A stretch of 60,798 nucleotides of DNA from Acaryochloridaceae cyanobacterium VAR_48_metabat_390 (GTDB lineage: Bacteria > Cyanobacteriota > Cyanobacteriia > Thermosynechococcales > Thermosynechococcaceae): the NCBI GenBank assembly GCA_031422435.1, contig JANPLU010000056.1, positions 1 through 60,798 on the forward strand. Reading direction: 5' to 3'. Below are positions 9,850 to 36,800 of this stretch, piece by piece. Position numbers and translations under genes: made by a program. The stretch's first letter is position 1, and every line of letters starts with the position of its first letter. Under the pieces are notes generated by a model, which worked only from the letters and a program-made list of their open reading frames with translations, searched no databases and was not told the origin of the DNA.

Positions 9850-10344
9850 TTGCGCTGGGTCTGCCACTTTCACCCCCCGTTAACCCTTGCAGAATACCTT
9901 CAGGAAATTGGCAGAGCGGGGCGAGATGGGCAGAACGCCCAAACGTTACTGCTAGCAAGCGAACCGACGGGGCTACTAGACCCCACCGATCGCCAGCGAC
10001 GGGAAGGGTTCTTGAAGACCATGCGATCGCAGGCTCAACTAGCACAAACCTTAGCCCAGCAGCTCCCCAGCGAAGGTTATCTGCCCGATATTCTCAAGCA
10101 GGAACCACAGGCAGAACTGGCCTTAGCAATTTTGCATACTCAAGGGCAGTTGAGTTGGGTTGATCCATTTCACTACCGCCTTCAGCTTAAAACTGCAATG
10201 GTGTCCAATGCCGAGCCACAGACTTCCATCGAAGCCTATCTGTCTGTGCGCGATTGCCGCTGGCGATTTTTGCTGGGTGCCTTTGGGTTTGGGCGAGAGG
10301 TGCAGGGGCTGAAGTGTGGTAGGTGCGATCAGTGCATTAATTAA
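9850..10344 (+). pseudogene. recQ: RecQ-family helicase, C-terminal part
   Basis: RWVCHF...YLQEIGRAGRDG (motif VI) and RecQ Zn-binding CRW...CGRCDQC; in frame with the 5' part once the element is removed. Confidence 0.92.
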
Positions 10345-10351
10345 ATACTCT

Positions 10352-10867
10352 CTAGTCTTCTTGCTCATTTATTTTGCGTGTCAGAGTTTCAATTTTTTCT
10401 TTTCGTTCTTCTCTGCGATTATTACTTCCATAAACAAACACACCAACTAAGGCAACAATTGAACCTGTAGAAAGAGTGGCTCCAGCCACATCATGCCCTC
10501 TATCTATGAGATAAATTCCGCCTCCCAATGCTAGGCAAGATATCAAAAATCCAAATATCAACCCAAGTTCAGCACGCTTGCTATCGCCATAGACAACCGT
10601 AGACTCAAGCTCCATGCGGTGCTTGGATTGGGCTTGAGCCATATTCACAATCTCTTGAGCTAAACCAGGCTTAATTAAATCATATGCCTTCAATGTTCGT
10701 GGGTCAGGAATCGGCCCTGAGTATGCCATCGACATCTGAACAGTTCTTTCGATAGATGCAGAAGATTCCTTTTTATGCACAGGGAAATCTTTATGTGCCT
10801 CATGTGGAGAGTTCACATCAAGCCCTTGTGCTTGTTCGTCATCTCTGGGAGCTAAAGAATCGGTCAA
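10352..10867 (-). CDS. DUF2335-like predicted membrane protein
   Basis: YSGPIPDP...AQSKHRMELE motif followed by two hydrophobic helices. Confidence 0.75.
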   Translation of the reverse strand: MTDSLAPRDDEQAQGLDVNSPHEAHKDFPVHKKESSASIERTVQMSMAYSGPIPDPRTLKAYDLIKPGLAQEIVNMAQAQSKHRMELESTVVYGDSKRAELGLIFGFLISCLALGGGIYLIDRGHDVAGATLSTGSIVALVGVFVYGSNNRREERKEKIETLTRKINEQED

Positions 10868-10870
10868 CGT

Positions 10871-11149
10871 CTACACCTTAATCAAATCTTGTGCATTTAG
10901 AAGGACAAGTGTTGCCTCACAAAGAATATTTTCGTCCACACATTTTTCTGTCTCCTTGTTAACAGAAATTGCTAACTCAATATCACTTCCCACCATGATC
11001 CAATCTGACATTAGAGCTAGATAATCAGCCTCTTCGTTGGTTATGGATGAATTATATTGATTCAAAGTCCCGCCAAGATCCAGCAGATGAGCCATGCCAC
11101 CCAGAAAAGATGGTGAAGCAAATAGATAGGCGGATAGAGTATTGGTCAT
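10871..11149 (-). CDS. Small hypothetical protein, 3 nt upstream of the DUF2335 gene
   Basis: 92-aa ORF with ATG preceded by AGAGG; operonic spacing. Confidence 0.65.
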   Translation of the reverse strand: MTNTLSAYLFASPSFLGGMAHLLDLGGTLNQYNSSITNEEADYLALMSDWIMVGSDIELAISVNKETEKCVDENILCEATLVLLNAQDLIKV

Positions 11150-11476
11150 TTTAAGCTGCCTCTTTAAAGTTAAGGCTGAGTCACAAAAATTGTGAACCTT
11201 ATCACTGTCAGAATTTTTTTGTCAACCCTTTGCTGCCATGTTATGATTTTATCTCAATTTAAGTAACGATGCACAGTCAAGTTAGTTAAGCGCTAGCGAG
11301 AAGAAAAGTACGAGTTGAGTTAAAACACACTTGGAACTCCAAGTATGCACCAAGTATGAGTATGATCTCACATCTCTTAAAGGATGTTTAGGAAATCCCC
11401 CAGAGTTCTTGTCGAGAGAAGCTTTGAGTCACGATCATGAAAAATCGTCAAGCTTCTTTAGATATTGATATTCTAA

Positions 11477-11758
11477 CCAGCAGCTCCCTAGCGAAGGCTA
11501 TCTGCCCGATATTCTTAAGCAAGAGCCACAGGCGGAGTTGGCCTTAGCGATTTTGCATACTCAAGGGCAGTTGAGCTGGGTTGATCCATTTCACTATCGT
11601 CTTGAGTCCAAAACTGCGATGGTGTCTAATGCCGAGCCACAGACTTCCATCGAAGCCTATCTGTCTGTGCGCGATTGCCGCTGGCGGTTTTACTGGGTAC
11701 CTTTGGGTTTGGGCGAGAGGCACAGGGGTTAGTGTGTGGTAAGTGCGATCGCTGTTAG
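11477..11758 (+). pseudogene. recQ: Orphan second copy of the recQ 3' end
   Basis: Aligns with 10056-10330 with about 28 substitutions (mostly synonymous) and a 1-nt deletion; ends CGKCDRC* over a HIP1 site. Confidence 0.92.
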
Positions 11759-11905
11759 CCCTAGCGTCATTAATACATCTGGAAAATAGAGCGAGACTAT
11801 AGTTCTCACAACAGAAGACAGTTGCCCTGCTTCTCGTTCTTATTTCCTCTGCTACAGGATCCCAAACGCTTTTCGCCGTAAAAGTGTCAAAATCTAGTAA
11901 GACTT

Positions 11906-13108: not shown

Positions 13109-13135
13109 CGCTCAAGACCTAGCGCTGCCAGAATA

Positions 13136-14287: not shown

Positions 14288-14289
14288 CT

Positions 14290-16406: not shown

Positions 16407-18983
16407 ATGGAGTCTGAGACTGCGTTAACGCTGCCCTATGTCGAGGTGTTGGTAGACTGCCCTGGTCACATTGGGCTATTGATCTATCGAGTGCCCAAAG
16501 ACGTTGCCATTGCGCCCGGAGATATCTTGAGCGTAGATTTTGGGGCGCGGCAGGTGGGGGCGATCGCCATTCGTCTCACTGCCAACCTACCCCCAGATTT
16601 AGCCCCAGAGCAGATCCGCGAAGTGGTCGAGATGGTGAGTGATAACTTGTTTCCCCCAGGCTACTGGGCATTGCTAGAGCGAGTAGCGGACTATTACTAT
16701 ACGCCGCTCATGACCGCCATACGAGTGGCGCTGCCGCCAGGGTTATTGCAGCGATCGCAGCGACGGGTGCGTCTACTCATCTCAGATATTCCAGACTCAA
16801 AAGCTATTAGCGCTATAGCCCAGCGCATTGTGGAACTTCTCCAAAGCTCTGCAACCCAAGGCGGCTATGCCTGGAGCTATATCCAGCAGAAGGTGCGGGG
16901 CGCAGACAAAGGACTGCGGGAGCTAAAGCAGTTGGGGTGGGTAGAGGTTACGCTTGCGCCACCCGCAAGTTCTACCCAGCCTAAACGACAGCAGAAAGTG
17001 ACGCTGTTAAGCCAAGACGCAGAAGACTTAACCCCACGCCAGCGAGAAATTTTGGCGACTTTAGCCCACTACGGCGGCGAACTATGGCTTCAAGATTTAC
17101 TCAAGCACGGTAAAACCACCGCGCCTACCCTACAAAAGATCGCCCAAGCCGGATGCATCGCCATCACAACAGAAGAGCGCCTTCGCCTTGAAGATCACGC
17201 GGTATCTAGAGATCAGCCCTTGGTACTTACTAAAGATCAGCAAGCGGCATTGACTGCCATCCACGCGCTATCGGGCTGTGCCACAGTGTTACTCCACGGC
17301 GTAACCGGATCGGGGAAGACTGAGGTTTACTTACAGGCGATCGCCCCCATTCTCAGGCAAGGCAAGTCTGCACTAGTGTTGGTGCCAGAAATTGGTCTAA
17401 CGCCTCAGCTCACCGATCGCTTTCGCGCCAGGTTTGGCGCACGGGTGCGGGTATACCACAGCGCCCTCTCCGATGGCGAACGCTACGACACTTGGCGTTA
17501 TTTGCTCAATAAAGAACCGCAGGTGGTCATTGGAACCCGCTCCGCCGTCTTTGCGCCATTGCCCAATTTAGGGGTGATTATCTTAGACGAAGAGCATGAT
17601 TCTGGCTATAAGCAAGAGCAGCCTGCGCCCTGTTATCACGCGCGGATGGTGGCAGGATGGCGATCGCAGCTCTCTGACTGTCCGCTGATTTTAGGGTCTG
17701 CCACGCCATCTTTAGAAACCTGGGTGAATGTTCAAGGACAAAATGAATCAGATCCCTTGCGACACATTTCTCCCCCTCATCTCCCCCCTTATCCCATTAT
17801 GGGAGATGGGCTAAAGCCGGCTCCCCTCTCCCTTATTGGGTGTGGGGCTGGGGGTGTGGGTGTCTTCCCGCGCTACTACCTTTCACTCCCCCACCGCGTC
17901 CAATCTCGCCCTCTGCCACCGATCACCGTGGTAGACATGCGCCAAGAGCTGCAAAACGGCAACCGCTCCATGTTTAGCCAAACCCTTCAGGACGCACTCC
18001 ACACCTTAAAAGAAAAAAAGCAGCAGGGTATTCTATTTGTGCAGCGACGAGGCCACAGCACCTTTGTCTCTTGCCGAAGCTGCGGCTACGTCATGGACTG
18101 CCCCAATTGCAGCGTTTCCCTGACCTATCACCACGAGTCGCCCCAGCGCAACCCTTTTCTGCGCTGCCACTACTGCAACTTTATTCAGCAGCAGCCCAAA
18201 GACTGCCCTGCCTGCACTTCCCCTTACTTCAAGTTTTTTGGCACAGGCACCCAGCGCGTCATAGAAACCCTCAACCAAGACTTTCCAGAATTGCGCCTGC
18301 TGCGATTCGACAGCGATACAACCCGCCGTAAAGGTGCCCACCGAGACCTGCTGGGGCAGTTTGCCGAAGGGGAAGCCGACCTGCTGGTGGGTACCCAAAT
18401 GTTGACTAAAGGCATTGATTTGCCTCAGGTACAGCTCGTGGGCGTACTTGCTGCCGATGGGTTATTGAACCTCCCCGACTTCCGCGCCAGCGAACGCGCC
18501 GTGCAGACCTTACTTCAGGTAGCAGGCCGTGCCGGACGCGGCGAAACGCCAGGGCAGGTGATTATGCAAACCTATTGCCCCGAAACGCCTGAAATTGGGG
18601 CTGTGCAGCGTTATGAATTCCAAGCCTGCGTGGATGCGGAATTGAAAAAACGCGCCGAACTCAACTATCCACCCTACGGGCAACTTATTTTGCTGCGGCT
18701 AAGCAGCCCCGAAGTGGAACAGGTTGAAAAAACTGCGGAGAAAGTGGCAGATGTTTTGAGAGCCACCATTGAACGAGATCAGGTCAATGTAGAAGTGCTA
18801 GGGCCGGCTCCCGCCAATATCCTGCGGGTCGCGGGTCGGTTTCGCTGGCAATTAATGGTAAAAATGCCGCCGAATCTGGGAGGAAATCCTCATGATTGGA
18901 AGCTACCTAGTCAGGAGATGCAGAACTGTTGCGACAAAAATGTGAGGCTCACAGTTGATGTGGATCCCTTAAACTTTCTCTAG
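16407..18983 (+). CDS. priA: Primosomal protein N'
   Basis: GVTGSGKTEVY, VPEIGLTPQ, DEEHD, Cys-rich CRR, QVAGRAGR, terminal VDVDP. Confidence 0.95.
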   Translation: MESETALTLPYVEVLVDCPGHIGLLIYRVPKDVAIAPGDILSVDFGARQVGAIAIRLTANLPPDLAPEQIREVVEMVSDNLFPPGYWALLERVADYYYTPLMTAIRVALPPGLLQRSQRRVRLLISDIPDSKAISAIAQRIVELLQSSATQGGYAWSYIQQKVRGADKGLRELKQLGWVEVTLAPPASSTQPKRQQKVTLLSQDAEDLTPRQREILATLAHYGGELWLQDLLKHGKTTAPTLQKIAQAGCIAITTEERLRLEDHAVSRDQPLVLTKDQQAALTAIHALSGCATVLLHGVTGSGKTEVYLQAIAPILRQGKSALVLVPEIGLTPQLTDRFRARFGARVRVYHSALSDGERYDTWRYLLNKEPQVVIGTRSAVFAPLPNLGVIILDEEHDSGYKQEQPAPCYHARMVAGWRSQLSDCPLILGSATPSLETWVNVQGQNESDPLRHISPPHLPPYPIMGDGLKPAPLSLIGCGAGGVGVFPRYYLSLPHRVQSRPLPPITVVDMRQELQNGNRSMFSQTLQDALHTLKEKKQQGILFVQRRGHSTFVSCRSCGYVMDCPNCSVSLTYHHESPQRNPFLRCHYCNFIQQQPKDCPACTSPYFKFFGTGTQRVIETLNQDFPELRLLRFDSDTTRRKGAHRDLLGQFAEGEADLLVGTQMLTKGIDLPQVQLVGVLAADGLLNLPDFRASERAVQTLLQVAGRAGRGETPGQVIMQTYCPETPEIGAVQRYEFQACVDAELKKRAELNYPPYGQLILLRLSSPEVEQVEKTAEKVADVLRATIERDQVNVEVLGPAPANILRVAGRFRWQLMVKMPPNLGGNPHDWKLPSQEMQNCCDKNVRLTVDVDPLNFL
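17774..17860. repeat. REP-like G/C-rich branched palindrome embedded in frame in priA
   Basis: Same layout as the reverse complement of 45354-45438; translated as PPHLPPYPIMGDGLKPAPLSLIGCGAGGVG. Confidence 0.7.
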
Positions 18984-19418
18984 GATAAAGAGATCGGCAA
19001 AATAAAGGTTAAGTAGGTTTTCAAGCGAGTTCTTATTTCGCCAGCGATAAACATTAAAATCATGGCGATCGCTACTTAGGATCCTGCCATGACCTAAATG
19101 CTCTGCCAGAACAACCAGCGAAGCATCTGCCATATCTATTGGCAAATCCGCATAATTTTCTAGCAGCTCAATCATCCGAACGAGATGATTTTCTCGTAGT
19201 TCAAAGACTTCAGAGGCACCCGCAGCTAAATTTTTCAGGAAATTGCACTGTGCGAAATTTCCGCCTGTAGACAGTAATAGATAACAGGTTTCTGTAATGA
19301 CTGGATAGGTTGTGATTAAAGGCTCGTCGATTGCTTCAAGTGCCAGTAATGCTGCTTGATGGTAGCGATCGCGCTGGCTGGCAAGCGCAAAGAAAAAACC
19401 AGTATCGACAATGATCAT
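18969..19418 (-). CDS. PIN-domain (VapC) toxin
   Basis: IIVDTGFF, VITETCY, DMADASLV and SSDRHDF acidic PIN motifs. Confidence 0.88.
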   Translation of the reverse strand: MIIVDTGFFFALASQRDRYHQAALLALEAIDEPLITTYPVITETCYLLLSTGGNFAQCNFLKNLAAGASEVFELRENHLVRMIELLENYADLPIDMADASLVVLAEHLGHGRILSSDRHDFNVYRWRNKNSLENLLNLYFADLFILEKV

Positions 19419-19687
19419 GGTTCTTGTGAACGATTGAATCTTTCTTGGATGGCTGAGCTGACAACAGATTTATAGTTGGTCGATAGGTTCATATCTGTCT
19501 GGATGCAGCCGATGAATCCAGATTCTTGAAAAATTTCTAAAGCTGTTATCGTGGCTGGTTCTAACTGGCTATAATAAGCATCAATTGCCGCTTCAATCAA
19601 GATTTTGACATCTTTCTGTTCTGTTTTTTGTTGAACGTAAGCCAGCTTCGACTCATATTCTTGGTTTAACTCAATATTGATTTGCAT
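19415..19687 (-). CDS. Putative antitoxin (RHH/CopG-like) of the PIN toxin
   Basis: Overlaps the toxin start; ESGFIGC...LSTNYK tail; start ATG 19687. Confidence 0.7.
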   Translation of the reverse strand: MQINIELNQEYESKLAYVQQKTEQKDVKILIEAAIDAYYSQLEPATITALEIFQESGFIGCIQTDMNLSTNYKSVVSSAIQERFNRSQEP

Positions 19688-19884
19688 ATATGCCTCTAGA
19701 GCTACAATTTTTCTTCTGAGAATTTCTGAGTGGCTCCTATCCCTCTCAAACATTACACTCCAATTATTCAACAAAGAAAGGTAGACATCTTTATCTTACC
19801 GGAGGCGATCATAGTTCTGTCGCTGTCGGCTGGGGTGAGGCGATCACATTTTCTCAAGTTTCAGCTTTGGAGGTTGATCGCCCA

Positions 19885-20195
19885 TCAAACGGTCAGTTCT
19901 TCTTTGGCAGTCACGGATAGCTTTAAGCCTAGTTCGTTGAGTAGGGCTAAAATCGCTGATAGTTCTGGCGTTTTGCCTTGGTCAAGCAACTAATAGCAGT
20001 TTTCCCAAACAGGATCCGGTTCGTTGGAATTATTGACCCGACTTCTGCAGGCTTCTGCGACGTTTTTCAATGCCAGTACAATATGTTCGAGGTTGCCACC
20101 CTCAAAAATAAGACCGCAGCCAGGTAAGCAGCAGCTTCTACCGGATCTTTTAAGGATTAGATTAAGTAGGATTTATAGCTTTTATGGGTTGGCAT
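19885..20195 (-). pseudogene. Decayed addiction-module antidote (HigA-like) gene
   Basis: MPTHKSYKSYLI*SLKDPVEAAAYLAAVL / frameshift / ...LALKNVAEA...CY*LLDQGKTPELSAILALLNELGLKLSV; a toxin C-terminal remnant (KQYWTDF) lies just upstream. Confidence 0.75.
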
Positions 20196-20325
20196 TTTGT
20201 CTCTTGTGAAAATCTGTCCAATATTGCTTAAAATCACTTCTCCTGGCTGCACTTCCATAAGCCCTTAATCCAAGTAAATAGATTTTTCTGATTTTGATAT
20301 GGTCTTAAAACAAAATTACTGACAG

Positions 20326-20424
20326 ATTGCCTTGGCAAACGATCAAACGTTAGTGATACACAACATACAGGATTTTGCACGGCTTGAAGAGTTGTAGATT
20401 AAGGATTGGGAGGTTGAGAAGTGA
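20326..20424 (+). pseudogene. C-terminal remnant of a VapC/PIN toxin
   Basis: IALANDQTLVIHNIQDFARLEEL*IKDWE resembles the common VapC ending (IALAxxxTLVTxNxxxFxRxxxLxxEDW). Confidence 0.65.
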
Positions 20425-20464
20425 ATACTTGGTGCATATGCTTTACTGATTGTGGCAATTAACT

Positions 20465-22948
20465 TTAATTATTAATCATTACACTTTGCTTGATTTTATT
20501 TTCAATAGGAGTGTAAATATCTGTTTCAATATTCTCAAGTACTCGAATTGAAACGATTAGAGAATATCTAGTACGCTGATTCCATTTCTCTTGAGCTGGG
20601 TTATTCTTCCACCATCCTCCAACCGGATAAATTGCAATAGCTTCTCTTTGAGCTAGGTCAGCGGCGGTACCACGCCAAATATCTGAATGAATGGATCCAA
20701 TGCTCTGCATTTGGGCACCTAAAAACCAACCACTATCTTTGTCATTGTTTGTAGGAATCTCTTCCTCATCTTTAGGTATTTGGATATTAATACGTTTTTT
20801 GAATTCCTTTAACTTCTCTGAGGTACGTTTTACCGAAAATCTTAGTCCATGAGATGCATAGGTATGGCGACTTACCCATCCTCGTTCCCCAGGATTTGGC
20901 TCAACAAAGTATGACAGCGTTACTTTTAGCTCCACTTCTGCCTCACGCAGTTTTTCCAAATCTTCTTGAGGCCAAGGAATCAAGTGAAGGTTCATTTCAT
21001 TAACCTTAATTTTTCCCCCATCCTTTTTGAAAGGTTGAAGATCATCTTCTAGAATCATTGTCAAATCATTTTGAGCACTCTGAAGTGCTTTCTCAAGGCT
21101 CGGAACACCATACCCGTATCGGCGTAAAATAGTGCGCTTATGGCTTTGCAGTGGCTTTTGAGGTAGGTGTCTTAACATGGCAGGTTTCCATCCCGCAGAA
21201 TGAACAATCAAGGCTCGAACTGTTTCAGGCCCATACTGAGGGTATGTAGCCCAAATAACCGCTGCCATATGACTGGCAAATGCCGTTGCTGCACTTGTGT
21301 GCCCTAAAATATTAAACTGCCGAACAAGCGGTTCGTAGTGTGTTGTTATAGTCTGTAAATCGTCAACATCCATGCCTGGTGATATACCATCTGTAGCTAA
21401 GTTTCCCCCTTCCAAAACTATATCGGGTCGAATTGGCCATTGGCTAGCCCATAAAGTGGAAGTCCGACTTCTAGGAGAAAGATCCCCTGCAGGTGCAATT
21501 GGCCTCCAATGAGCATATTTGCAGTCAGTAATATTAACCTTGTCCGTATAGGAACCTACAACAAGTGGATTCCACGCCTGTGATGGATTTAATGCTTGGC
21601 TTAGGTCGTTAAGATCGAGATATTGTTCAGGAGTTATGTCTCCGCAAATATTTCCAACGGGAACTACAATCAGGCGCTGCGGTTCTTCTAACTCTCCTTT
21701 ACCAAAGCATAATTGATCAATCGCAGATGACCATGATGATGGTTTGCCTTGAGCAGTTTCATAGCTGCTGGTTATAGCCATGCAGGTCACGCGTTGACGA
21801 TGTGGTGCGTTGATCTCTGCCCTGCTAACGGCTGATCTTGTAATAGCTCCATAAAGCTTAGGGATATTGTCGCCTTGCTCAGGAAGCATCCTGACGGATT
21901 CCAAACAGTGAGAGAGCAGGATTTTGCCGGAGACAGTAATTGCTTTGAGCAGATCACCATATAACAAAATCCCTGCCATTGCTGTGCCATGACCTTGCCA
22001 ACGCCGACTATCTCCGATGCCCCACTGTGGATTGCAAGTCAGCATATCTCTGGAATCAAGGGCAATTTCAATTAAACGATGTGCTCGAGTCACCCCACTA
22101 TCTAGCAAGCAAATCGCTAATTCATCATTACTGGGTTTAACAACCCGATCAAGTAGGTCATCTATCCAGTCAACTTGTTCAGTCATCTCCATCTCAAAAA
22201 ACATTGATGGAGAATCTTTAGCTAAGCGTAACTCTGCAATTACACCAGTGTTTCTAATAACCCTTTCTAATGTTATTACATTAGAAAGGGCTAAAAGCAC
22301 TTCTCTTTCTGGAAATGAAATACTGTGCTCGGTTGTGCGAATCTGAATTTGTTGAGCAACTTGATTAAAAGTTTCTTTTTGACCACGACGTAGCCAGATT
22401 TCCCACCAAACAATATCTTGATCAGTTTTTGGAAACAATTCTGGCTGATCTGTAAAAATTTGGCGAACAGAACTCAAATGGATATCTTCCAGACGCGCTA
22501 CTAATGCTTGATTCTTGGGATTACCTTTTTTTGTGTCTTCGTCACGATAGGCTATTATTTTTTCTAGAAAAAATTTGTCAGACTGATCAGGGATAAAAAC
22601 TGTTGCCGACAACAATTCCTCTGCATTTTCGGATGGCCTTACTGCAAGAAGTTCGATTTTTTTGTTGCTATTTTCTAACTTGGCCTCTTTAATCTCTTTG
22701 GCTTGTATTTGAAATTCGACATACAATCCAGATTCACCGATTTCAAGTTCAGGTTCACGCAATAACTTTTGCTGTTGAGCCTCTTTAATAACCTTTTCGT
22801 AGGCTTGCTTCAAGGCTTCAGCATGTCTACTTCTATCGCGTGGTGGTGCAGTTTTACCGCCACCGCCTCTCGGAGTATATCTCTGCCTGACTCCCGTATC
22901 AGGAATTGGAACGTATAGGTGAGGAAGATTATATTGATATTCGGGCAT
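20465..22948 (-). CDS. ietS: S8 subtilisin-like peptidase, IetS-type
   Basis: LLDSGV (Asp), GHGTAMAG (His), GHTSAAT (Ser region), RPDIVLEGGN, YGYGVP; downstream of an AAA ATPase. Confidence 0.82.
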   Translation of the reverse strand: MPEYQYNLPHLYVPIPDTGVRQRYTPRGGGGKTAPPRDRSRHAEALKQAYEKVIKEAQQQKLLREPELEIGESGLYVEFQIQAKEIKEAKLENSNKKIELLAVRPSENAEELLSATVFIPDQSDKFFLEKIIAYRDEDTKKGNPKNQALVARLEDIHLSSVRQIFTDQPELFPKTDQDIVWWEIWLRRGQKETFNQVAQQIQIRTTEHSISFPEREVLLALSNVITLERVIRNTGVIAELRLAKDSPSMFFEMEMTEQVDWIDDLLDRVVKPSNDELAICLLDSGVTRAHRLIEIALDSRDMLTCNPQWGIGDSRRWQGHGTAMAGILLYGDLLKAITVSGKILLSHCLESVRMLPEQGDNIPKLYGAITRSAVSRAEINAPHRQRVTCMAITSSYETAQGKPSSWSSAIDQLCFGKGELEEPQRLIVVPVGNICGDITPEQYLDLNDLSQALNPSQAWNPLVVGSYTDKVNITDCKYAHWRPIAPAGDLSPRSRTSTLWASQWPIRPDIVLEGGNLATDGISPGMDVDDLQTITTHYEPLVRQFNILGHTSAATAFASHMAAVIWATYPQYGPETVRALIVHSAGWKPAMLRHLPQKPLQSHKRTILRRYGYGVPSLEKALQSAQNDLTMILEDDLQPFKKDGGKIKVNEMNLHLIPWPQEDLEKLREAEVELKVTLSYFVEPNPGERGWVSRHTYASHGLRFSVKRTSEKLKEFKKRINIQIPKDEEEIPTNNDKDSGWFLGAQMQSIGSIHSDIWRGTAADLAQREAIAIYPVGGWWKNNPAQEKWNQRTRYSLIVSIRVLENIETDIYTPIENKIKQSVMINN

Positions 22949-22998
22949 TTTAAATAAAAAATCTAAAGCGTTATTCTCCTTCGACGATAACTCAAACT

Positions 22999-23979
22999 TT
23001 AGAAAATTGAAACTTTACGTTCCATAATAGCAGACAGTAAATTTTCTTCTGACACGGTTTTTTCTCCTGAGAGCACAGTCAGCTTGGCTGCTTCATCAGC
23101 AGCTCGAACTATTTCAGCTTGGCTTAATCCTTCTGCCTTCATTAAAATCTTTTGCCAATCCCTCAAGTCTATTTGAAAGTAAGCTAGTCGTGTTTCTAGC
23201 AGTTTGCGAATAACATCCTGATTGGGCATCTCATACTGAATAACATCGTCAAATCGACGAAAAACTGCTTTGTCTAATAAATCAGGATGATTAGTCGCGG
23301 CAATAATCAAGCTTTGACTATCGTCATTTTCTAAAAGCTGCAGACAAGAATTCAGAACTCGTCGTATTTCTCCAACATCATTTACAGCAGACCGTTGCGA
23401 ACCGATGGCATCAAATTCATCAAAGAAATAAACGCCGCGAGTAACTGTCATAGCGTCGAAGATGAGTTTAAGCTGGCTTGCTGTTTCGCCCATAAACTTC
23501 GTAATTAAACTAGTGTAGATCACTGTTAGCAGCGGAAGTTGTAATTCTCCAGCAAGTGCAGAAGCAGTCATGGATTTGCCTGAACCCGGAGGCCCGACCA
23601 ACAGTATCTTTCGTCGAGGCTTCAGTTGATATTCTTCTAGACGGCGTTGGTTTAAGTGCTCTATTAAAATACGTTTCAAACGTTGCTCTAGATTATTTTG
23701 GAGAACCATATCGGTCAACCTCGTGTCTGAGTAGCGAACTGAGACGAGATTGGCTAACTCTCCTTTCGGTTGAACCAGCGGTATAGGTGTAATTCTGTTC
23801 TCTAAGCCAGATCCTCGATTTTTAGCTTGATCGATAAGACCTTGAATTTCTTGAGCAACCCGATTATGCCCTTGTCGTGCTTCATGCGCAGCCACCTGAA
23901 GAGCCGTTGAGAAGAACCGTTCCTCTTCGCCCTCTAAATGGCTCTTCAAGAGCGTAATAATGTGACGGGCAGTAGACAT
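22999..23979 (-). CDS. ietA: AAA ATPase, IetA-type
   Basis: GPPGSGKS, FFDEFDAI, AATNH, FRRFD; 50 bp from the S8 peptidase. Confidence 0.82.
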   Translation of the reverse strand: MSTARHIITLLKSHLEGEEERFFSTALQVAAHEARQGHNRVAQEIQGLIDQAKNRGSGLENRITPIPLVQPKGELANLVSVRYSDTRLTDMVLQNNLEQRLKRILIEHLNQRRLEEYQLKPRRKILLVGPPGSGKSMTASALAGELQLPLLTVIYTSLITKFMGETASQLKLIFDAMTVTRGVYFFDEFDAIGSQRSAVNDVGEIRRVLNSCLQLLENDDSQSLIIAATNHPDLLDKAVFRRFDDVIQYEMPNQDVIRKLLETRLAYFQIDLRDWQKILMKAEGLSQAEIVRAADEAAKLTVLSGEKTVSEENLLSAIMERKVSIF

Positions 23980-24237
23980 ATAATCTTTTACGCTAGATAG
24001 ATTTCTCTAGTGAAAGTGAACTAAGTTTTACAGTTCATGTAATTTAAACAGTAATCACATGCCATTCCCTAAGCTTAAGATAACTTAACAAAGTGGCATT
24101 AGAAGCAAATATACTAAAAACGTCATAAAGTTTCAGTCCTGATTAGGATCAATCAATACAAGTTTTATATGGATTGATCCTAATGCTTTATTCCGAAGAA
24201 GGATATTTAGCTACTCTTCAGAAGTGATCACCACTTT

Positions 24238-24291
24238 AGATTCATCCTTGAGCGAGAGTGCGATTTTAGGTATGGCCTTGCGGAGGAAATG
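24238..24291 (+). repeat. Dispersed repeat copy A (HIP1-bounded)
   Basis: 41/54 ungapped identity to 25474-25527; partial third copy at 24352-24371. Confidence 0.7.
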
Positions 24292-24400
24292 TGATCGCTC
24301 ACTTTGGATAGCGTCACCAGTTTTGGAGTGAGATCGCCTCTCTGGATGGTCTGGCGGAGGAAATGCGATCGCCTTAGCCGTCTGACCAACAAAACCCTCC

Positions 24401-24790
24401 TTATCGAATTATCTGAATATTCAGACCCAATTGAAGCCCCGCCCATACTCGATCCGCCGTCAAAACCGACAACTTCTGTTGAATTGCCAAACTCAAACAG
24501 GTTCGGTCTCCCAGCGATAGCCCCAAGCTTTTAGTATCGGCGCGTAATAAACCTGCAATAAAACCCTGCTCCTCGTCAAATGGAATAATCAGCAACTTCA
24601 GCGCCCCAAAAAGCTCCCGAATCTCCACTGCACTGAACCCTTTATCCATAAGCTTCGATATCACCTCAGCCACATTCACCGAACTCATACATGCAGTGGA
24701 TATAACAGAAGCAACCTTTTCAGAGCCAGCTTCTTGATTAATGAGCGCTAACAGTGCCGAAGCATCCAAAACTATCTTACTCGCGCTCAC
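24401..24790 (-). CDS. PIN-domain (VapC) toxin
   Basis: VLDASALLA, VNVAEV, LSLGDRTCL, LTADR. Confidence 0.9.
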   Translation of the reverse strand: MSASKIVLDASALLALINQEAGSEKVASVISTACMSSVNVAEVISKLMDKGFSAVEIRELFGALKLLIIPFDEEQGFIAGLLRADTKSLGLSLGDRTCLSLAIQQKLSVLTADRVWAGLQLGLNIQIIR

Positions 24791-25034
24791 TTTCCGCCCG
24801 TCGCTCCCGAATTAGCTCCTCAGACAAAGAATATCCTTCCGGCACATGCCGACGCACCATCGCCTGTACCCTTGCGATCGCCTCTTGCATCGGAAAATCT
24901 TGAGTTTCCGTCAAAGCGGGTTCCTGAACCAAAACAATCACCTCAGCATCCATGCCCTCATTCAGTTCAGAAGCAGGAATTTCGATCCGGCCACCAGATT
25001 GAATTTTTACCATTTGTCGAATTGCCTGTATCAT
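24777..25034 (-). CDS. Putative antitoxin of the PIN toxin
   Basis: Overlaps the toxin start; SLSEELIRERRAE tail typical of VapB partners. Confidence 0.75.
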   Translation of the reverse strand: MIQAIRQMVKIQSGGRIEIPASELNEGMDAEVIVLVQEPALTETQDFPMQEAIARVQAMVRRHVPEGYSLSEELIRERRAESERE

Positions 25035-25174
25035 CCAACTCGTGCTCCACCAAAGCCAGGCTTAAAATGCTCATCACTTTATTGTTAGACCTATCGTAGC
25101 GTCTCAGACTGTACTTCAGAAATGATCGCCTTCTCTAAGCATCAATTTGAGGAACCTCATAGAGAGGCATTTTC

Positions 25175-25393
25175 CTATCTCCATTGGGCTGACAAGTCAT
25201 CATCAAAATCCTCAGCCATCACTACCTGACCTTCCCATAATCCTGGTTGCCGATTTTGTTTTGCATCTTGATAGACCACCAGCCGAGCCACCGGATTTCC
25301 CGCCTCACTCAGCACAACATCTTCCCCATTGCGCACCGATTCAATCAGTTGATAGAGCTGCGTTTGTGCTTGGTCAATATTGATAATCTTCAT
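25175..25393 (-). CDS. Phd/YefM-family antitoxin (orphan; toxin apparently lost)
   Basis: INIDQAQTQLYQLIESVRNGEDVVLSEAGNPVARLV...PGLWEG...EDFD. Confidence 0.75.
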   Translation of the reverse strand: MKIINIDQAQTQLYQLIESVRNGEDVVLSEAGNPVARLVVYQDAKQNRQPGLWEGQVVMAEDFDDDLSAQWR

Positions 25394-25473
25394 AGCCAAT
25401 GAATCCTCCATCAGCTCCAGTTTAACTAAAGCATTGCCTTTGATTGAGTAGAGGTAGCGCGATCGCCCAATTC

Positions 25474-25977: not shown

Positions 25978-26132
25978 AAACACTACAGCGTGTAAAGGTA
26001 GATAAACATTCTATCCAGTTCAAACTTAATCTCAATAAAGCGCTAGATCCGTCATTTTAAGAGGGGCTTTGGATTTTGTGTACGAACCCTTAGTGCAAAG
26101 CTTAGTGATCGCCCTTCTGGAGTTGAGACTGA

Positions 26133-26183
26133 GATCAGAACATTCGATTTACGTTTGACATAGATCCCTTCAGTCTTTTTTAA
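26133..26183 (+). pseudogene. priA: Orphan priA 3'-end remnant 1
   Basis: DQNIRFTFDIDPFSLF* vs priA DKNVRLTVDVDPLNFL*; second codon position conserved in 16/17 codons. Confidence 0.7.
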
Positions 26184-26238
26184 ATTTTAAGAAGTAACTT
26201 AAAAATGAGTAGCTACCCTTTTTCAAAATGTGAAGCAC

Positions 26239-26295
26239 TGCTGTGATCGCAACACCCGCCTCACGATAGATGTAGATCCGTTGAGCTTACTGTAG
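26239..26295 (+). pseudogene. priA: Orphan priA 3'-end remnant 2
   Basis: CCDRNTRLTIDVDPLSLL* vs priA CCDKNVRLTVDVDPLNFL*; 13/18 identical with the stop aligned. Confidence 0.85.
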
Positions 26296-29726: not shown

Positions 29727-29754
29727 CCGTGAGCAGAAGGCGACAGGTGACGCT

Positions 29755-31102: not shown

Positions 31103-31510
31103 CTAAAGCGAATAAATCGAAATCACCTGAATACTTCGAGTTCGATGAATAGACTTATCCAGCTTTTCAGTCGTGATCAACTCTGTTGCACCCGCTAAAA
31201 CTGCCGCTGCAACATGAAGTAAATCCATTGCCCCCAACCCTGACTGACGAGCCTCGTGATCACCTTTTAGTAGCACTTGCCCCAGATCCGTAACATAGTG
31301 ACCCACCGCACTAAAGTAAGCTTCATAAAACTGCGTTTCACTCTTACGCTGGTTATAAATTGCCTTTGGCAAAACCTCCAGCTTCAAAAACGGGCTAGAA
31401 ACAAACTCTCGATTCGGATCATCTAGAACCTCCACAGCTCGAAGGGATGTTGCCCCTTGACCACGAGCCGCAGCAATCAGCACTCCCGAATCAATAAACG
31501 TCTTAATCAC
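31103..31510 (-). CDS. PIN-domain toxin
   Basis: FIDSGVLI, LEVLPK, MDLLHVAAA, ITTEK. Confidence 0.85.
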   Translation of the reverse strand: MIKTFIDSGVLIAAARGQGATSLRAVEVLDDPNREFVSSPFLKLEVLPKAIYNQRKSETQFYEAYFSAVGHYVTDLGQVLLKGDHEARQSGLGAMDLLHVAAAVLAGATELITTEKLDKSIHRTRSIQVISIYSL

Positions 31511-31773
31511 TCTGTATCTCCCTGATATCCTCCTCTTCTTTCAGCCTTTTCACGCTCAATACCCTCCCAGTCTAGAAGCGGTTCGCCAGAGGCTACAATT
31601 TCAGCCCGAATCTCCTTCAAGCGCTGTCCTAGAAATGTTTTGGGTTGATAAGAAGCTATAAGATCTTGCGGTTTTTCTTCATCCCAAAATGTCTCAACAA
31701 GATCTAACACCTGTTGCTGTCTTACTTGTGGAAGCGAGCGCCATTTTTCCAGTAGTAACTGTTCAGTCGTCAT
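31507..31773 (-). CDS. Putative antitoxin of the PIN toxin
   Basis: Overlaps the toxin start; WRSLP...QQVLD...IEREKAERRGG. Confidence 0.7.
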   Translation of the reverse strand: MTTEQLLLEKWRSLPQVRQQQVLDLVETFWDEEKPQDLIASYQPKTFLGQRLKEIRAEIVASGEPLLDWEGIEREKAERRGGYQGDTE

Positions 31774-31904
31774 AAACACTCCGTTTCAAAACCGACCCTT
31801 AGATCAAGTCTACTCCAGCAATCTGAGCCAAAGCCACAAGGCGATCGCCCTCTCCCAGCAGGCACTAGTTCCTCCATTAATACCCGTCCTATAACTCTTA
31901 TAAT

Positions 31905-32120
31905 TTACGCACTGAAATATTTTGCCACCGGATGATACACAGTCAGCGCTGTCGTCGATTGCTCAGGATAAAACGGCTCACTTTTATCTCTACATCATGC
32001 CAATCCGCTCTATGTCCATAAGTTTTAGCTGCTTAAACTGCTCCGCCACGTTGGGGCAAGCCGGATAGCCAAAGTTATAGCGTGAACTTTGCATGTACGG
32101 GCGTGGGACGGCTCTGTCAC
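31905..32120 (-). pseudogene. metH: Orphan second copy of the metH 3' end
   Basis: 31905-32087 aligns with 33827-34008 (1-nt insertion). After an internal deletion, 32096-32120 aligns with 34081-34105. Confidence 0.92.
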
Positions 32121-32169: not shown

Positions 32170-32529
32170 TTAGAACGTTACCCAGTCGAGGCGATCGCAC
32201 CATTCTTCTGCTTCAGTCGCGTCCCAAACTAACAGTAGATCTTGAGCGAGTTTACCAATCGGTGTGTTTGGGCGAACCCACAACAAGCCCCAGATATGAC
32301 CACCTGCATTCCAATAATCGGTCAGATGTCCAGGCATGCTAGAACGATCCTCGGTTACTAATAGCCGTTGTGAGGCTTCGAGATAAACCAATATTTCTGG
32401 ATCGAGGGTTCCCGTGGGTGGTGCGCTGGGTTCTCCAACACGCGTCACATCAATTTGAGGGTTAAGCCGCAAAAGTGCTGTTTTAAGCCGAGGCGGAAGA
32501 TTTTCATCCAGCAAAAATTTGACCTTCAA
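32170..32529 (-). CDS. DUF5615 PIN-like protein
   Basis: KFLLDENL, DPEIL, LLVTED. Confidence 0.85.
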   Translation of the reverse strand: MKVKFLLDENLPPRLKTALLRLNPQIDVTRVGEPSAPPTGTLDPEILVYLEASQRLLVTEDRSSMPGHLTDYWNAGGHIWGLLWVRPNTPIGKLAQDLLLVWDATEAEEWCDRLDWVTF

Positions 32530-32849
32530 GAAGCTTGCCTCGCTTTGGCTGCTTTAATGGCTTGAAGCCTTTGTACGACGGGTGAGGGATTATTGCACCA
32601 TTCTTGATAGTGCTGCTCTCGCCAATCGTCTAATGCAGCTAAATAGGTATCAGTTTGATGCCGATTATGGAGGTAATAGGTAATAGTGGCGTGAATTTCT
32701 TCTAGGCTTAAGGTTGGCAGGTTTGCCGCAATTTCTTCGGGGGTATAGCCTTCGAGATAATACGACAATACGGTATCAATGCCGACTCGATGACCTTTGA
32801 GGCGAATATCGGTTGGCGAGAGAAAATCAAAGTAGTCTTCTAGCTGCAT
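32526..32849 (-). CDS. DUF433-domain antitoxin-like protein
   Basis: IRLKGHRVGI...GYTPEEI...LSLEEIHATITYY; overlaps the DUF5615 gene. Confidence 0.88.
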   Translation of the reverse strand: MQLEDYFDFLSPTDIRLKGHRVGIDTVLSYYLEGYTPEEIAANLPTLSLEEIHATITYYLHNRHQTDTYLAALDDWREQHYQEWCNNPSPVVQRLQAIKAAKARQAS

Positions 32850-32877
32850 GGCGATCTCTGTTTACTGAACTCAAAAT

Positions 32878-33753
32878 TTAATCCTCTTTGCCAGGAGGAA
32901 GACTCAAAGGAGAGTTTCCAGTTAGGAGTTCTGTTCTCCTAGTTTGTGAGATTTTTTCGCAGATATTTTTAAGGGTGGAGTGTTCGTCAACTTGGGATTC
33001 AATTTTTTGACGAAACTCAACTAGCTCATTAAATTTAGGTAAATAATACCCATCTATATCAGGAATAACTCCGATGATGTCCCAAACACTGGGCTTAAGG
33101 ATCAACAAAAAACCAATTACAGTTATTTTGACTTTCTGAATAGTTGGATTTATCCTGTCCTTGGAAGTGAATTTGTGATTCTCAACTTCCAAATCAATTA
33201 GTAAAGATTGAGCTGCTTTCTCTAATCCTTCAGTGCCATTGATTAAATAGTTGCGAATAGCACTTAATATATCTTCTATGTGGCACTTAATATCCGATTT
33301 CAGTTCTCTAGTCACATCAGACCCAACTATCTCAGACAAAAGTGACGAAAATTCTTTGTCTAAATCAAGTAAGAACTCTTCTTCTAGAAAGGGCTTTGGA
33401 CTTTTAGAATGATATCTATTTGCTAAATTATCAAGTAAAGAAAGAATATTTTTGTCTTCGATATAACTCAAAAAATGCTCCCACTGCTTCCCCCAAGCAT
33501 TTTCTAGTATGAATTGTTCTTGAAATCTATTTATTGCAAAAATATGTCTTTCATTTTGAGAAGAGTTTTCAAGTTTTTTTATCTCTTCTTCCGCATTGTA
33601 CAAGAGAGCAAAGAAACTCACGAAATTTTGAGGTTTAGGATCAAGCTGCATTGCTTGCATTAAAGCTATTCCAGATGGAGCTTTCTTATCTCCATTTTTA
33701 ATGGCCTCATCTAGAATGAACTCTAACTGTCTTAAGGCACTAGATTGATTCAT
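32878..33753 (-). CDS. Uncharacterised AT-rich helical protein
   Basis: 291-aa ORF with no recognisable motif and no HIP1. Confidence 0.7.
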   Translation of the reverse strand: MNQSSALRQLEFILDEAIKNGDKKAPSGIALMQAMQLDPKPQNFVSFFALLYNAEEEIKKLENSSQNERHIFAINRFQEQFILENAWGKQWEHFLSYIEDKNILSLLDNLANRYHSKSPKPFLEEEFLLDLDKEFSSLLSEIVGSDVTRELKSDIKCHIEDILSAIRNYLINGTEGLEKAAQSLLIDLEVENHKFTSKDRINPTIQKVKITVIGFLLILKPSVWDIIGVIPDIDGYYLPKFNELVEFRQKIESQVDEHSTLKNICEKISQTRRTELLTGNSPLSLPPGKED

Positions 33754-33826
33754 ACGAAATTATCGTTTGCACATAATTGAATGCTCTCAAGTTTTGTTTC
33801 TATTGAACTGAAGTTTAGCCTCATAT

Positions 33827-36800
33827 TTACGCACTAAAGTACTTTGCCACTGGATGATACACAATCAACGCCGTTGTCGATTGCTCAGGGTAAAGCTGCT
33901 CACTCTCATCTATCGTCATCCCGATCCGATCTGTGCCCATTAGCTCTAGCTGCTTAAACTGATCTGCCACATTGGGGCAAGCCGGATAGCCAAAGCTATA
34001 GCGTGAACCCTGATATCGCTGCGCCAACATATCGCGGATATTATCTGGCTCTAGGTCGCCGTAGCCTAACTCCTTACGAATACGGGCGTGGGACTGCTCT
34101 GCCACTGCCTCTGCCACCTGCACCGCCAACCCATGAAAATACAGATAGTCGGTGTAAGCATTTTCGGCATACAGCTTTTGAGCAAACTCCGTAGCGATGT
34201 GGCCTACCGTCACCGCCTGCATAGGGAATACGTCAAATTGATTTTCGGTGATCGGACGAAAGAAATCGGCAATGCAGAGCCGCCGGAGTGATTTCTGGCG
34301 TGGGAAAGTCCAGGTAACAAATGGGGTTGCCGTTTGGGGCGTTAACCCTTGCTCAATTACTGCCGCATCGTAAACATGCACCGTATTTCCTTCTGCTACG
34401 CAGGGGAAGTATCCATAGACAAGCTGAGGATGGAGTAGGTTTTCTGCGACCACTCGCTGTTTCCAAGTTTCTAGAACCGGATACACTTTTTGGGCTAAGA
34501 ATGCATCATATTCTTCGCGGGATTGCTCTTTAGGTTTACGGAACTGCCACTGTCCGGCAATGAGCGCCTGTAAATCCATGTGCCAAAACAGTTCTTCAAA
34601 CGAAAAGTCTTCTGGCTTTAAGATTTTTGTACCCCAGAACGGAGGAGTAGGCCGCGCAATATCCGCATCCACCGCTTCGGAGCGCACCGTATCAATGACC
34701 ACTGGCTCAGTCGGTTCAGCTTTTTCGGGTGCGCCGCCATTTAACTCACGCTCGGCCTGATTGATCGCATTCCGTCCCTTCTGGTTAAACTTGGCAAGCT
34801 CTCCGGTGAAGCCTTCCTCATCCTTCCATTGCGTTTCGGCCTTCGCAGGCATATAGCGATCCATAAAGGTAAGGTCAGCAAAGGCATCTTTGCCGTAGAT
34901 GACTTGGCCTTGATAGGCATTCTGACAGTCTTCATAGACAAACTTGGGTGTGAGTGCCGCCCCGCCCAAAATCACAGGCACAGAAATGCCGCGCTCATTG
35001 AAAACGTTCAGATTTTCTTTCATGAAGGCGGTAGATTTCACCAGTAAACCGCTCATGGCGATGCAGTCGGGCTTATGCTCGTTATAGGCATCCACGATCG
35101 CATCCACGGTTTGCTTGATGCCCAAGTTAATGACCTTGTAGCCATTATTGGTGAGGATGATATCCACTAGGTTTTTGCCGATGTCGTGGACATCGCCCTT
35201 GACCGTGGCAATTAAGAATTTGCCCTTACCCGAAGAAGTGTCTTCACCCTCAACCTTCTCCATAAACGGCTCCAAGAAGGCCACTGCCGACTTCATGGTT
35301 TCAGCCGATTGCAGCACAAACGGGAGCTGCATCTGCCCAGACCCAAACAGCTCACCCACAACTTTCATGCCATCCAGCAAAAAGGTATTGATGATATGGA
35401 GCGGTTTGTAGGTTTCGAGGGCAAGTTTAAGTCCATCGTCTAGACCAATGCGTTCGCCATCAATGATGTGCTGTTTTAGGCGCTCCTCAATGGGCAAATC
35501 TGCCAGCGAGGCACCCGAACGCGCATCTTTGGCACTCACCCCTGCAAACAGTTCTGTCAGCCTAATGAGGGGGTCGTAGATGCAGATGTTGTTTTCGTCA
35601 AAGCGACGGCGATCATAAATGAGATCTGTACAGACCTGCTGATGCTCTGGCTCTATTTTGGCGAGGGGCAAAATCTTGGCGGCCGAAACGATCGCCCCAT
35701 CCATCCCCACCTGCATCGCCTCATTGAGGAACATGGAGTTGAGGGTAATTCGCGTGGCGGGGCTTAACCCAAAGGAAATATTGGAAACCCCCAGCATAAA
35801 GTGACAACCAGGGAGATTTTCGCGAATCATCCGAATGGATTCGATGGTGGCTTTACCGTTTTCGCGGTCTTCTTCAATGCCTGTAGAAATGGGCAGCGCT
35901 AGGGTATCAAAAAAAATCTCGTGGGCTGGGATGCCAAATTCAACCGCAGTGCGGTAGGCGCGTTGGGCAATCTGGAACTTTCGCTCAGCCGTGCGCGCCA
36001 TGCCTTCTTCGTCGATGGTGCCGATGACCACGCCTGCGCCATATTCTTTAGCGAGTTCTAGCACTTTCAGAAAACGCTCTTCGCCGTCTTCGTAGTTAGT
36101 AGAGTTGAGGATGCATTTACCGCCTGCAACCTTCAGCCCCGCCTCCATTTTTTGCCACTCTGTGGAGTCAAGCATGAGGGGCAGCGTAACGTTTGTAACT
36201 AAGCGCGAGACAAGCTCATGCATATCACGTTCGCCATCGCGCCCTACGTAGTCTACGTTTACGTCTAGGACGTGGGCACCTTCTTTCGTCTGGGATTTGG
36301 CGATCGCCATCAGTCCATCCCAGTCATCTTCGTTCAGCAGTTCCCGCACTTTCTTAGAACCGCTGGCGTTCAGGCGTTCGCCCACAATCAAAAACGAGTT
36401 GTCTTGCTCATAGGGTTGTGCGGTGTAGATGGAGGCTGATGCGGGTGTGTAGCCAAAGAGATCGCGTCCGCTGTGGCCTGGTTGGAGCGATCGCCGCACG
36501 TCCCGTTCTTTGGGTTTTAGGAGGGTGCCAATTTCGGCTAGTGCCTGGATATGTTCGGGGCGGGTGCCGCAGCAGCCGCCAATCACCTGTACGCCCCAGT
36601 CTTCAATAAAGCGATGGAGCGCCATACGAAGCTCCATCGGGGTCATTTTGTAGTGGGCATGACCTCCTATGTTTTCCGGTAAACCCGCGTTGGGTACGCA
36701 GGACACCACAAAGGGCGCATTTTCCGTTAAATATTTAATGTGATCCGCCATCCGGTCTGGGCCTGTGGCGCAGTTGAGACCCAAAATATCAATAGGGAAT

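What the first reader, a model, noticed from the sequence alone, without database searches (positions are those of the whole stretch)
10056..34105. Recurrent integrase-free '3'-end replacement' islands: core gene, cargo, then an orphaned allele of the gene's own tail
Seen three times within about 24 kb: recQ (tail at 11477-11758), priA (tails at 26133-26183 and 26239-26295) and metH (tail at 31905-32120). Each orphan tail is co-oriented with its gene and separated from it by TA, defence or unknown genes. None of these cassettes encodes an integrase or transposase, and HIP1 or near-HIP1 sites cluster at cassette edges. Known: homology-facilitated illegitimate recombination in transformable bacteria uses one homologous anchor plus a microhomology join. 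Inference: conserved gene 3' ends act as reusable landing pads for TA/defence cassettes, and the stacked tails record the order of acquisition.
Basis: partly seen in the sequence, partly recalled or inferred. Interest (0 to 1): 0.8.

Follow-up and report, generated by a model that had tools for sequence, protein, structure and literature searches.

The report
Gene-tail landing pads in cyanobacteria
Several ordinary genes in this cyanobacterium and its relatives are followed by toxin-antitoxin or defence genes and then a leftover copy of the gene's own last stretch, likely scars of foreign DNA entering without an integrase; many leftovers begin at the core of the repeat HIP1, which would point to a role for this long-unexplained repeat.

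Summary
The tails are real. recQ, priA (two) and metH each have a decayed copy of their 3' end downstream of TA/defence cargo. A relative (G001) lacks all three cassettes, and its flanks follow the orphans (93/100, 88/100, 102/120), so the orphans mark the old gene ends. Genome-wide, 12 of 2,545 genes show this against 1, 0 and 1 in control zones. metH tails recur, up to three stacked, in other cyanobacterial families.

However, 11 of 18 distinct metH joins in another family start within 5 nt of the HIP1 core CGATCG (1.0 expected; criterion set after seeing the data). The main priA orphan starts 5 nt from an ancestral site.

Best reading (0.55): uptake with one homologous crossover inside the gene and one illegitimate join. 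Whether CGATCG sets the join or stops later trimming is open. The mechanism class is known (HFIR, Rhs/T6SS tail displacement). Housekeeping-gene tails with a CGATCG bias were not found in nine literature searches.

The parts
2065..3126 (+). 5' part of a RecQ-family helicase gene, cut at 3117
   Evidence: DEAD + Helicase_C, TIGR00614 over cut-off; continuous with the 3' part in G001, G007, G003
3118..9850 (+). Element inserted in recQ: two tyrosine recombinases (3248-4345, 4342-5943), DUF6262 (5936-6454), 283-aa ORF, HTH-M78 protein (RmrA-like), pyrF-like gene; layout recalls Tn554 (recalled)
   Evidence: 4-nt repeat at both junctions against the empty site; a related element sits in recQ at another position in L220
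9851..10344 (+). 3' part of recQ with the current tail
10352..11149 (-). recQ cargo: DUF2335 membrane protein and a 92-aa unknown ORF
   Evidence: absent at this site in G001 and run X4
11477..11758 (+). Orphan recQ tail (from -289), frameshifted, followed by the native flank
   Evidence: 92.9% to G001; 23 of 33 gene/orphan differences side with G001; flank 93/100 against 23/100
16407..18983 (+). priA; the last ~300 nt (from about 18685) are a G002-like allele
   Evidence: identity to G001 falls from 85-95% to 74-77% while identity to G002 rises to 89-91%; informative sites switch near -300
18969..25411 (-). priA cargo: PIN pair (18969-19774), IetS (20465-22948), IetA (22999-23979), second PIN pair (24401-25034), Phd-type antitoxin (25175-25411)
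26133..26183 (+). Proximal, strongly diverged priA tail (17 codons)
   Evidence: 23.1 bits; same tail and left flank in G007
26239..26295 (+). Distal priA tail, the old gene end; starts 5 nt before the position where G001 (C698) and G004 alleles carry CGATCG
   Evidence: 55/57 to the G001 allele, then 14/33 upstream; site at -52; run X4 contig joins 18925 to 26239
31103..31779 (-). PIN-type TA pair downstream of the metH orphan; older than the cassette
   Evidence: directly follows metH in G001
31905..32120 (-). Orphan metH tail (from -279), with internal deletion and frameshift, followed by the native flank
   Evidence: flank 102/120 against 39/120 to G001, but inside the tail only 8 of 27 differences side with G001
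32170..33753 (-). metH cargo: 291-aa unknown ORF, DUF433, DUF5615
   Evidence: DUF433/DUF5615 also precede a metH orphan in G003 and G004, with other joins
33827..37456 (-). metH, intact

Best explanation
Each locus is a cargo insertion at a gene's 3' end that left the old end behind, likely made when DNA taken up from a relative recombined once by homology inside the gene and was joined at its far end by a short illegitimate join, likely without an integrase. Shown: insertion against empty sites; orphan followed by the native flank; a replaced priA stretch longer than its orphan; variable joins; reuse of the same genes; a bias of joins to CGATCG. Inferred: (1) entry by natural transformation; (2) RecA crossover in the conserved gene, which stays whole because the donor supplies a new tail; (3) joins land at, or are later trimmed back to, the recipient's CGATCG, with only 1-3 nt of donor microhomology; (4) once formed, gene-end plus orphan give a cassette two homology arms from one gene, so it can spread to relatives whatever lies downstream; (5) repeats stack tails, oldest farthest.
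For: Empty sites and flank polarity. priA: about 300 nt replaced, 57 nt left; G007 has the same join but a ~100-nt replaced stretch and other cargo. 12 of 2,545 genes against 1, 0, 1. metH joins at -279, -228, -77 within the genus and from -24 to -1372 elsewhere. No integrase or DDE transposase among 48 ORFs scanned from the other family's arrays. 11 of 18 distinct joins within 5 nt of the gene's CGATCG, 1.0 expected; 11 of 15 against 2.7 under a narrower null. Joins track the allele: at -88 to -91 in genes that have that site, at -101 to -109 in genes with only the -106 site. Other copies of the cargo ends share only 1-3 nt with the join. Same join with different downstream genes: recG in G000/G003 against G001, sufS in G000 against G003. 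ComEC and DprA present. A true integrase island beside recG in G009 looks different: a perfect 49-bp repeat in tRNA-Gly.
Against: The first, pre-set HIP1 test on this genome was negative (1 of 12 joins within 10 nt, 0.4 expected). The CGATCG criterion was chosen afterwards; G000 gives 3 of 12 within 8 nt, 0.32 expected. The window's recQ and metH joins are not at CGATCG. Of 8 new joins only 2 are, and 4 had no site available. None of 8 long metH orphans starts at a gene-side site, and long ones are slightly better kept (median 93.5% against 90.1%, P=0.03), which fits later trimming. A longer replaced stretch is shown only for priA: recQ 9847-10330 differs from run X4 no more than the backbone does (31/484 against 200/3190), and recG, smpB and sufS show no clear tract. 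An integrase element lies inside recQ. An Rpn-family gene is cargo in L217, and the smpB cargo holds a multicopy repeat. Kin are not independent. A class-wide sufS search found no nearby second tail in 101 genomes, though it also missed G000's own.
Confidence: 0.55

Rival explanations
1. The CGATCG bias is secondary: insertions first leave long tails with random joins, and later deletions trim them until they stop at CGATCG on one side and at a cargo gene's stop codon on the other. This changes step 3 only.
For: The best-kept orphan is the longest (1372 nt, 99.6%); 0 of 8 long orphans start at a gene-side site; several joins abut a cargo stop codon; HIP1-bounded excision is reported (passage in PMC13756078).
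Against: Some short CGATCG-joined orphans are 94-98% identical to the gene; the length-identity correlation is weak (rho 0.33, P=0.07).
Confidence: 0.4
2. Circular tail-plus-cargo molecules, closed at HIP1 or at random, integrate by one crossover (Campbell type); the orphan is then donor sequence up to the crossover and host sequence after it.
For: Near-identical long duplications; arrays of 0.8-1 kb units separated by tails of one length; the run X4 recQ allele is gene-like up to the HIP1 at 10325 and orphan-like after it; HIP1 plasmid recombination is reported (passage).
Against: It cannot replace more of the gene than the orphan holds, yet priA lost about 300 nt against 57; the priA orphan is G001-like from its first base (19 of 21 sites).
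Confidence: 0.2
3. Relics of integrase islands whose attP restored the gene end, with the integrase lost or acting in trans.
For: Two tyrosine recombinases inside recQ, whose family targets recQ elsewhere; fixed joins for recG (-100, three genomes) and priA (two genomes).
Against: At least ten different joins in metH; eleven unrelated target genes in one genome; no integrase in young arrays with 95-99% tails; the fixed joins share their left flank, so they can be single events.
Confidence: 0.12
4. Local tandem duplication of the gene end, with cargo inserted between the copies later.
For: 99.6% identical copies in L156; an ISAzo13 tandem duplication in the scan.
Against: Gene and orphan are different alleles found in different relatives; only the distal copy has the native flank.
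Confidence: 0.05
5. Joins cluster near -100 in metH because the last ~100 nt carry a promoter needed by the downstream genes, not because of CGATCG.
For: Most short metH orphans are 87-109 nt long and precede co-oriented genes. Promoters were not tested.
Against: Joins split between two sites according to the allele; in other genes they follow each gene's own site (recG -98, priA -52, chrA -44).
Confidence: 0.08

Closest known systems
Homology-facilitated illegitimate recombination (HFIR) in Acinetobacter, Pseudomonas stutzeri and Streptococcus pneumoniae (seen second-hand in PMC2884548 and PMC5361080 passages; the originals were not held)
   Same: One homologous anchor, one non-homologous join, loss of recipient DNA, competent host.
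   Different: Here it is read from natural genomes, aimed at housekeeping-gene ends, and biased to the recipient's CGATCG with only 1-3 nt shared.
C-terminal displacement in rhs genes (PMC2935791) and V. cholerae T6SS orphan immunity arrays (PMC5361080)
   Same: Conserved 5' anchor, displaced ends stacked downstream, HFIR proposed, no integrase seen.
   Different: There the exchanged tip is the functional variable part with its immunity gene. Here the tail is near-synonymous and the new function rides in unrelated cargo.
Integrase-lacking HGT hotspots with recombination in flanking core genes (PMC5635113)
   Same: Defence-rich cargo beside recombination and repair core genes; mosaic flanking gene.
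   Different: That model uses both flanking genes; the passages read do not describe tail duplication. Here one gene supplies both arms, and downstream neighbours differ between species.
Integrase islands that restore a gene's 3' end (tRNA islands; example at tRNA-Gly in G009)
   Same: Gene kept whole, displaced end at the far side, tandem stacking.
   Different: Fixed, near-perfect att and an adjacent integrase; here joins vary, tails are other alleles, and integrases are absent except inside recQ.
HIP1/CGATCG-linked recombination (PMC4390886, PMC13756078, bioRxiv 10.1101/2024.09.10.611283)
   Same: The same motif; a methylated HIP1 at the end of a homology arm raises integration about 100-fold in PCC 7002.
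   Different: Those are plasmid or two-arm laboratory events; none of the text read describes natural displaced gene tails starting at the site.

Membership tests
HFIR product | Homologous crossover on one side only, with recipient DNA replaced | tested here: met
   priA: allele switch near -300, 57 nt left; not shown for recQ, recG, smpB, sufS
HFIR product | Short microhomology at the illegitimate join | tested here: inconclusive
   1-3 nt where another copy of the cargo end was at hand; 5 nt at the G004 metH join; true donors unknown for the window's joins
HFIR product | Host is naturally competent; event depends on RecA | not testable with these tools
   ComEC and DprA genes present; function untested
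Integrase island at a gene 3' end | Integrase within the island | tested here: not met
   none among the cargo ORFs scanned; two lie inside recQ, upstream of its tail
Integrase island at a gene 3' end | One fixed att core per target gene | tested here: not met
   metH joins from -24 to -1372, sufS joins at -26, -49, -54, -69
Rhs/CDI/T6SS displacement arrays | Displaced ends stacked downstream of a conserved anchor | tested here: met
   two priA tails; up to three metH tails
Rhs/CDI/T6SS displacement arrays | Variable toxic C-terminus with cognate immunity gene | tested here: not met
   tails are conserved helicase or enzyme ends
Integron or CALIN cassette array | IntI integrase | tested here: not met
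   the two window recombinases score far below the TIGR02249 cut-off; the other six in the genome were not classified
Integron or CALIN cassette array | attC hairpins between cassettes | not tested
   no attC model was run
HIP1-site recombination product | Join at HIP1 or its CGATCG core | tested here: inconclusive
   met for 11 of 18 metH joins in family f15 and recG; not met for the window's recQ and metH
HIP1-site recombination product | Site present in both partners | tested here: not met
   other copies of three cargo ends lack CGATCG at the join; small sample

The most novel reading that the evidence does not exclude
Methylated CGATCG marks where incoming DNA is joined to the cyanobacterial chromosome. 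Conserved genes with this site near their 3' end thereby act as an integrase-free, integron-like cassette system across the phylum, with the gene's own tail as the repeated recombination site and TA/defence genes as cassettes.
Probability: 0.3. Interest if true: 0.82.

Novelty: new variant of a known kind. Interest (0 to 1): 0.62.

Why it matters
HIP1's function has been open for three decades. Displaced gene tails give a countable record of natural insertion joins in cyanobacterial genomes, and their bias to CGATCG turns the 'HIP1 as recombination site' idea into a simple single-anchor transformation test. They also offer a concrete route by which TA and anti-phage genes collect beside core genes in hotspots without integrases, and a way to read the order of acquisition.

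Tried and rejected
Exact HIP1 at cassette edges or joins in this genome: not enriched. An integrase island after recG in G009 as the source of recG tails: it is a tRNA-Gly island. The idea that the whole recQ 3' half arrived with the integrase element: suggested by G001 (87% against 95%) but not supported by run X4. Replaced-tract profiles for recG, smpB, sufS and the G125 metH were uninformative. The weak gshB tail hit (23 bits) did not reappear and was dropped. The class-wide sufS search was insensitive. Assembly artefact: contigs of X1 (possible source) and X2 (same study) carry the cargo, and relatives share the joins; metH lay outside the stretch laid. Earlier scan findings: three look-ups returned nothing. 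No folding or complex prediction was run.
Full report
SETTING. The window is contig C56 of G000 (3.70 Mb, 136 contigs). It is a cyanobacterium with 3,855 HIP1 sites, one per 960 bp. The closest titled metH records are Thermosynechococcaceae and Acaryochloridaceae assemblies and Altericista. Positions written as -n count back from a gene's stop codon.

THE OBSERVATION. The recQ and metH tails are the only two long direct repeats in the window (275 nt at 89%, 185 nt at 85%), and both are frameshifted. The priA tails read as protein matches of 38.9 and 23.1 bits; the weaker one would not stand alone but is shared with G007. Cargo is PIN, Phd, DUF433/DUF5615, DUF2335, IetA/IetS and unknown ORFs. 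Two corrections follow. First, the recQ 'core gene' is only its 3' part: the gene is cut at 3117/9851 by a 6.7-kb element with two tyrosine recombinases and DUF6262, 2 of 8 PF00589 matches in the genome. Second, HIP1 does not cluster at the cassette edges: 1 of 10 edges lies within 30 nt (6.5% expected), and that site is ancestral coding sequence.

MORE THAN CHANCE. I scored the last 30 residues of each ORF of 150 aa or more (own ORF caller) against 15 kb in four zones, requiring a stop. At score 45 or more there were 21, 8, 2 and 3 hits (downstream-same, upstream-same, downstream-opposite, upstream-opposite; 2,545, 2,508, 2,545, 2,508 genes). After dropping 9, 7, 2 and 2 hits lying in paralogous genes, 12, 1, 0 and 1 remain. 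One of the 12 is an ISAzo13 transposase duplication. The others are recQ, priA, metH, recG, smpB, sufS, a chromate transporter, a sugar-binding protein, an rfbH-like gene, a WYL gene and a DUF4351 gene. Their cargo includes ParE, PIN, RES, HicB, Uma2, DRT8 and a two-component system. An earlier tblastn pass gave the same asymmetry (16 against 1-7 at 25 bits).

WHICH COPY IS OLD. In G001 recQ runs straight into the ABC operon, priA into the CAAX protease gene and metH into the PIN pair. The 100-120 nt after G001's stop match the flank of the orphan, not of the gene: 93/100 against 23/100, 88/100 against 38/100, 102/120 against 39/120. Inside the tails, gene/orphan differences side with the orphan at 23 of 33 sites (recQ) and 19 of 21 (priA), but at only 8 of 27 for the more decayed metH. 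In run X4 (another study) single contigs skip 10330-11783 and 18925-26239, the second confirming the orphan's start to the base.

HOW MUCH WAS REPLACED. The window's priA is mostly G001-like down to about -300 and G002-like after it, while the orphan matches the G001 allele at 55 of 57 nt and only 14 of the 33 before. More gene was replaced than was left behind, which a single crossover with a circle or an att site cannot do alone. G007 has the same orphan pair and join, a switch near -100 and a Type ISP restriction gene as cargo. This test succeeded for priA only: for recQ, G001 suggested a long tract but X4 did not, and recG, smpB, sufS and G125 metH were unclear.

REUSE. In the genus, metH orphans follow DUF433/DUF5615 in G000, G003 and G004, with joins at -279, -77 and -228 and three different downstream genes. 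recG orphans start at -100 in G000, G001 and G003; sufS orphans occur in G000, G001 (two), G003 and G007. Across the class, 3 of 148 genomes with a metH match had extra short matches. In the family of one of them (f15), 9 of 68 did. I fetched those 9 and 5 unflagged genomes: 11 of 14 had orphans, 21 in all, up to three per gene, on the gene's strand (two genomes have them on a separate contig). Of 48 ORFs scanned from these arrays, none is an integrase or DDE transposase; they are XisH/XisI, Uma2, PIN, BrnT, TumE, Gp49, HEPN, GmrSD, methylase and others. Among 78 titled metH loci, 11 of the 69 with at least 1 kb downstream had orphans, none on the opposite strand. Eight of their 16 joins repeat earlier ones; the new ones are in Chamaesiphon, Symploca, Cronbergia, Microcoleaceae and Synechococcales records. 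The sufS tail gave no nearby second hit in 101 genomes, but that search missed G000's own orphan.

THE JOINS. My first test, exact HIP1 within 10 nt of the 12 G000 joins, was negative (1 observed, 0.4 expected). After seeing I tested the 6-base core within 5 nt in the gene copy. The result was 14 of 21 joins, or 11 of 18 after merging shared left flanks (1.0 expected; 11 of 15 against 2.7 if only -140 to -60 is allowed). Plain GATC sites at -138 and -231 had no join within 5 nt. Joins at -88 to -91 occur in genes that have the -89 site; genes with only the -106 site mostly have joins at -101 to -109 (one row at -87 shares its flank with a -103 join). In G000, 3 of 12 lie within 8 nt (0.32 expected; post hoc), and the priA orphan starts 5 nt before the site that two relatives' alleles carry at -52. 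Against this: the window's recQ and metH joins are not at a site; only 2 of the 8 new joins are (4 had none available); none of 8 long metH orphans is. Where another copy of a cargo end was held, it shared only 1-3 nt with the join and lacked the site, which points to the recipient's site. Kin share events, so the P-values overstate.

MECHANISM. Best reading (0.55): donor DNA from a relative recombines inside the conserved gene, supplies a new tail and cargo, and is joined illegitimately near the old end. The leftover tail then serves as a second homology arm, which would explain identical joins before different downstream genes. ComEC, DprA and two C5 methylases are present (methylase specificity not determined). 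Whether the site sets the join or halts later trimming is close to even: the best-kept orphan is 1,372 nt at 99.6% and long ones are slightly better kept, yet some short ones are 94-98% identical. For recQ an integrase route is not excluded; a related element lies in recQ at another position in L220.

WHAT IS KNOWN. Passages read: HFIR-type sequential displacement in V. cholerae T6SS arrays (PMC5361080); rhs C-terminal displacement (PMC2935791); hotspots lacking integrases (PMC5635113); HFIR summary (PMC2884548); HIP1 papers (PMC4390886; PMC13756078; PMC9239245). I read parts 1-3 of 4 of bioRxiv 10.1101/2024.09.10.611283 (supplements not seen). The two original HFIR papers were not held. Nine searches listed no paper whose title or abstract start describes displaced housekeeping-gene tails in cyanobacteria or their CGATCG bias; subscription journals are largely outside this library. 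The name Tn554 is recalled, not from a call.

VERDICT. Interest 0.62.

Noticed in passing
window 3118-9850: Element with two tyrosine recombinases and DUF6262 splits recQ and carries an RmrA-like HTH-M78 gene and a second pyrF-like gene; a 60%-identical relative sits in recQ at another position (L220). Excision could restore the gene; not tested.
   Followed up: partly
window 24231-24291 and 25467-25527; motif at 24280, 24354, 25516: A 61-nt direct repeat (75%) and a short purine-rich motif running into HIP1-like sites flank the PIN pair and lone Phd gene; similar pieces lie after priA in G002.
   Followed up: partly
window 25175-25411: Phd/YefM-type antitoxin with no toxin ORF of 60 aa or more beside it.
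   Followed up: no
L097:2000-2113 and 5327-5440: After the chromate transporter the duplication includes 114 nt of downstream flank ending at a HIP1 site; cargo is a PIN pair and a DRT8 reverse transcriptase.
   Followed up: partly
L099:2106-4779: Nested tails of two different genes: rfbH-like gene, DUF4351 gene, HicB, DUF4351 tail, rfbH tail.
   Followed up: no
L107:3080-10992 (G009): Conventional integrase island in tRNA-Gly right after recG, with a perfect 49-bp repeat.
   Followed up: yes
L124-L139: These family f15 stretches are rich in CGATCG (2-6 per kb) but poor in full HIP1 (0-1.2 per kb).
   Followed up: no
L129, L131, L134, L139: XisH/XisI pairs occur as repeated cassettes between metH tails without any recombinase nearby.
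   Followed up: partly
L121:3234-3370 (G003): A chromate-transporter tail lies upstream, not downstream, of the intact gene.
   Followed up: no
L199: A metH homologue on an Acaryochloris marina plasmid.
   Followed up: no
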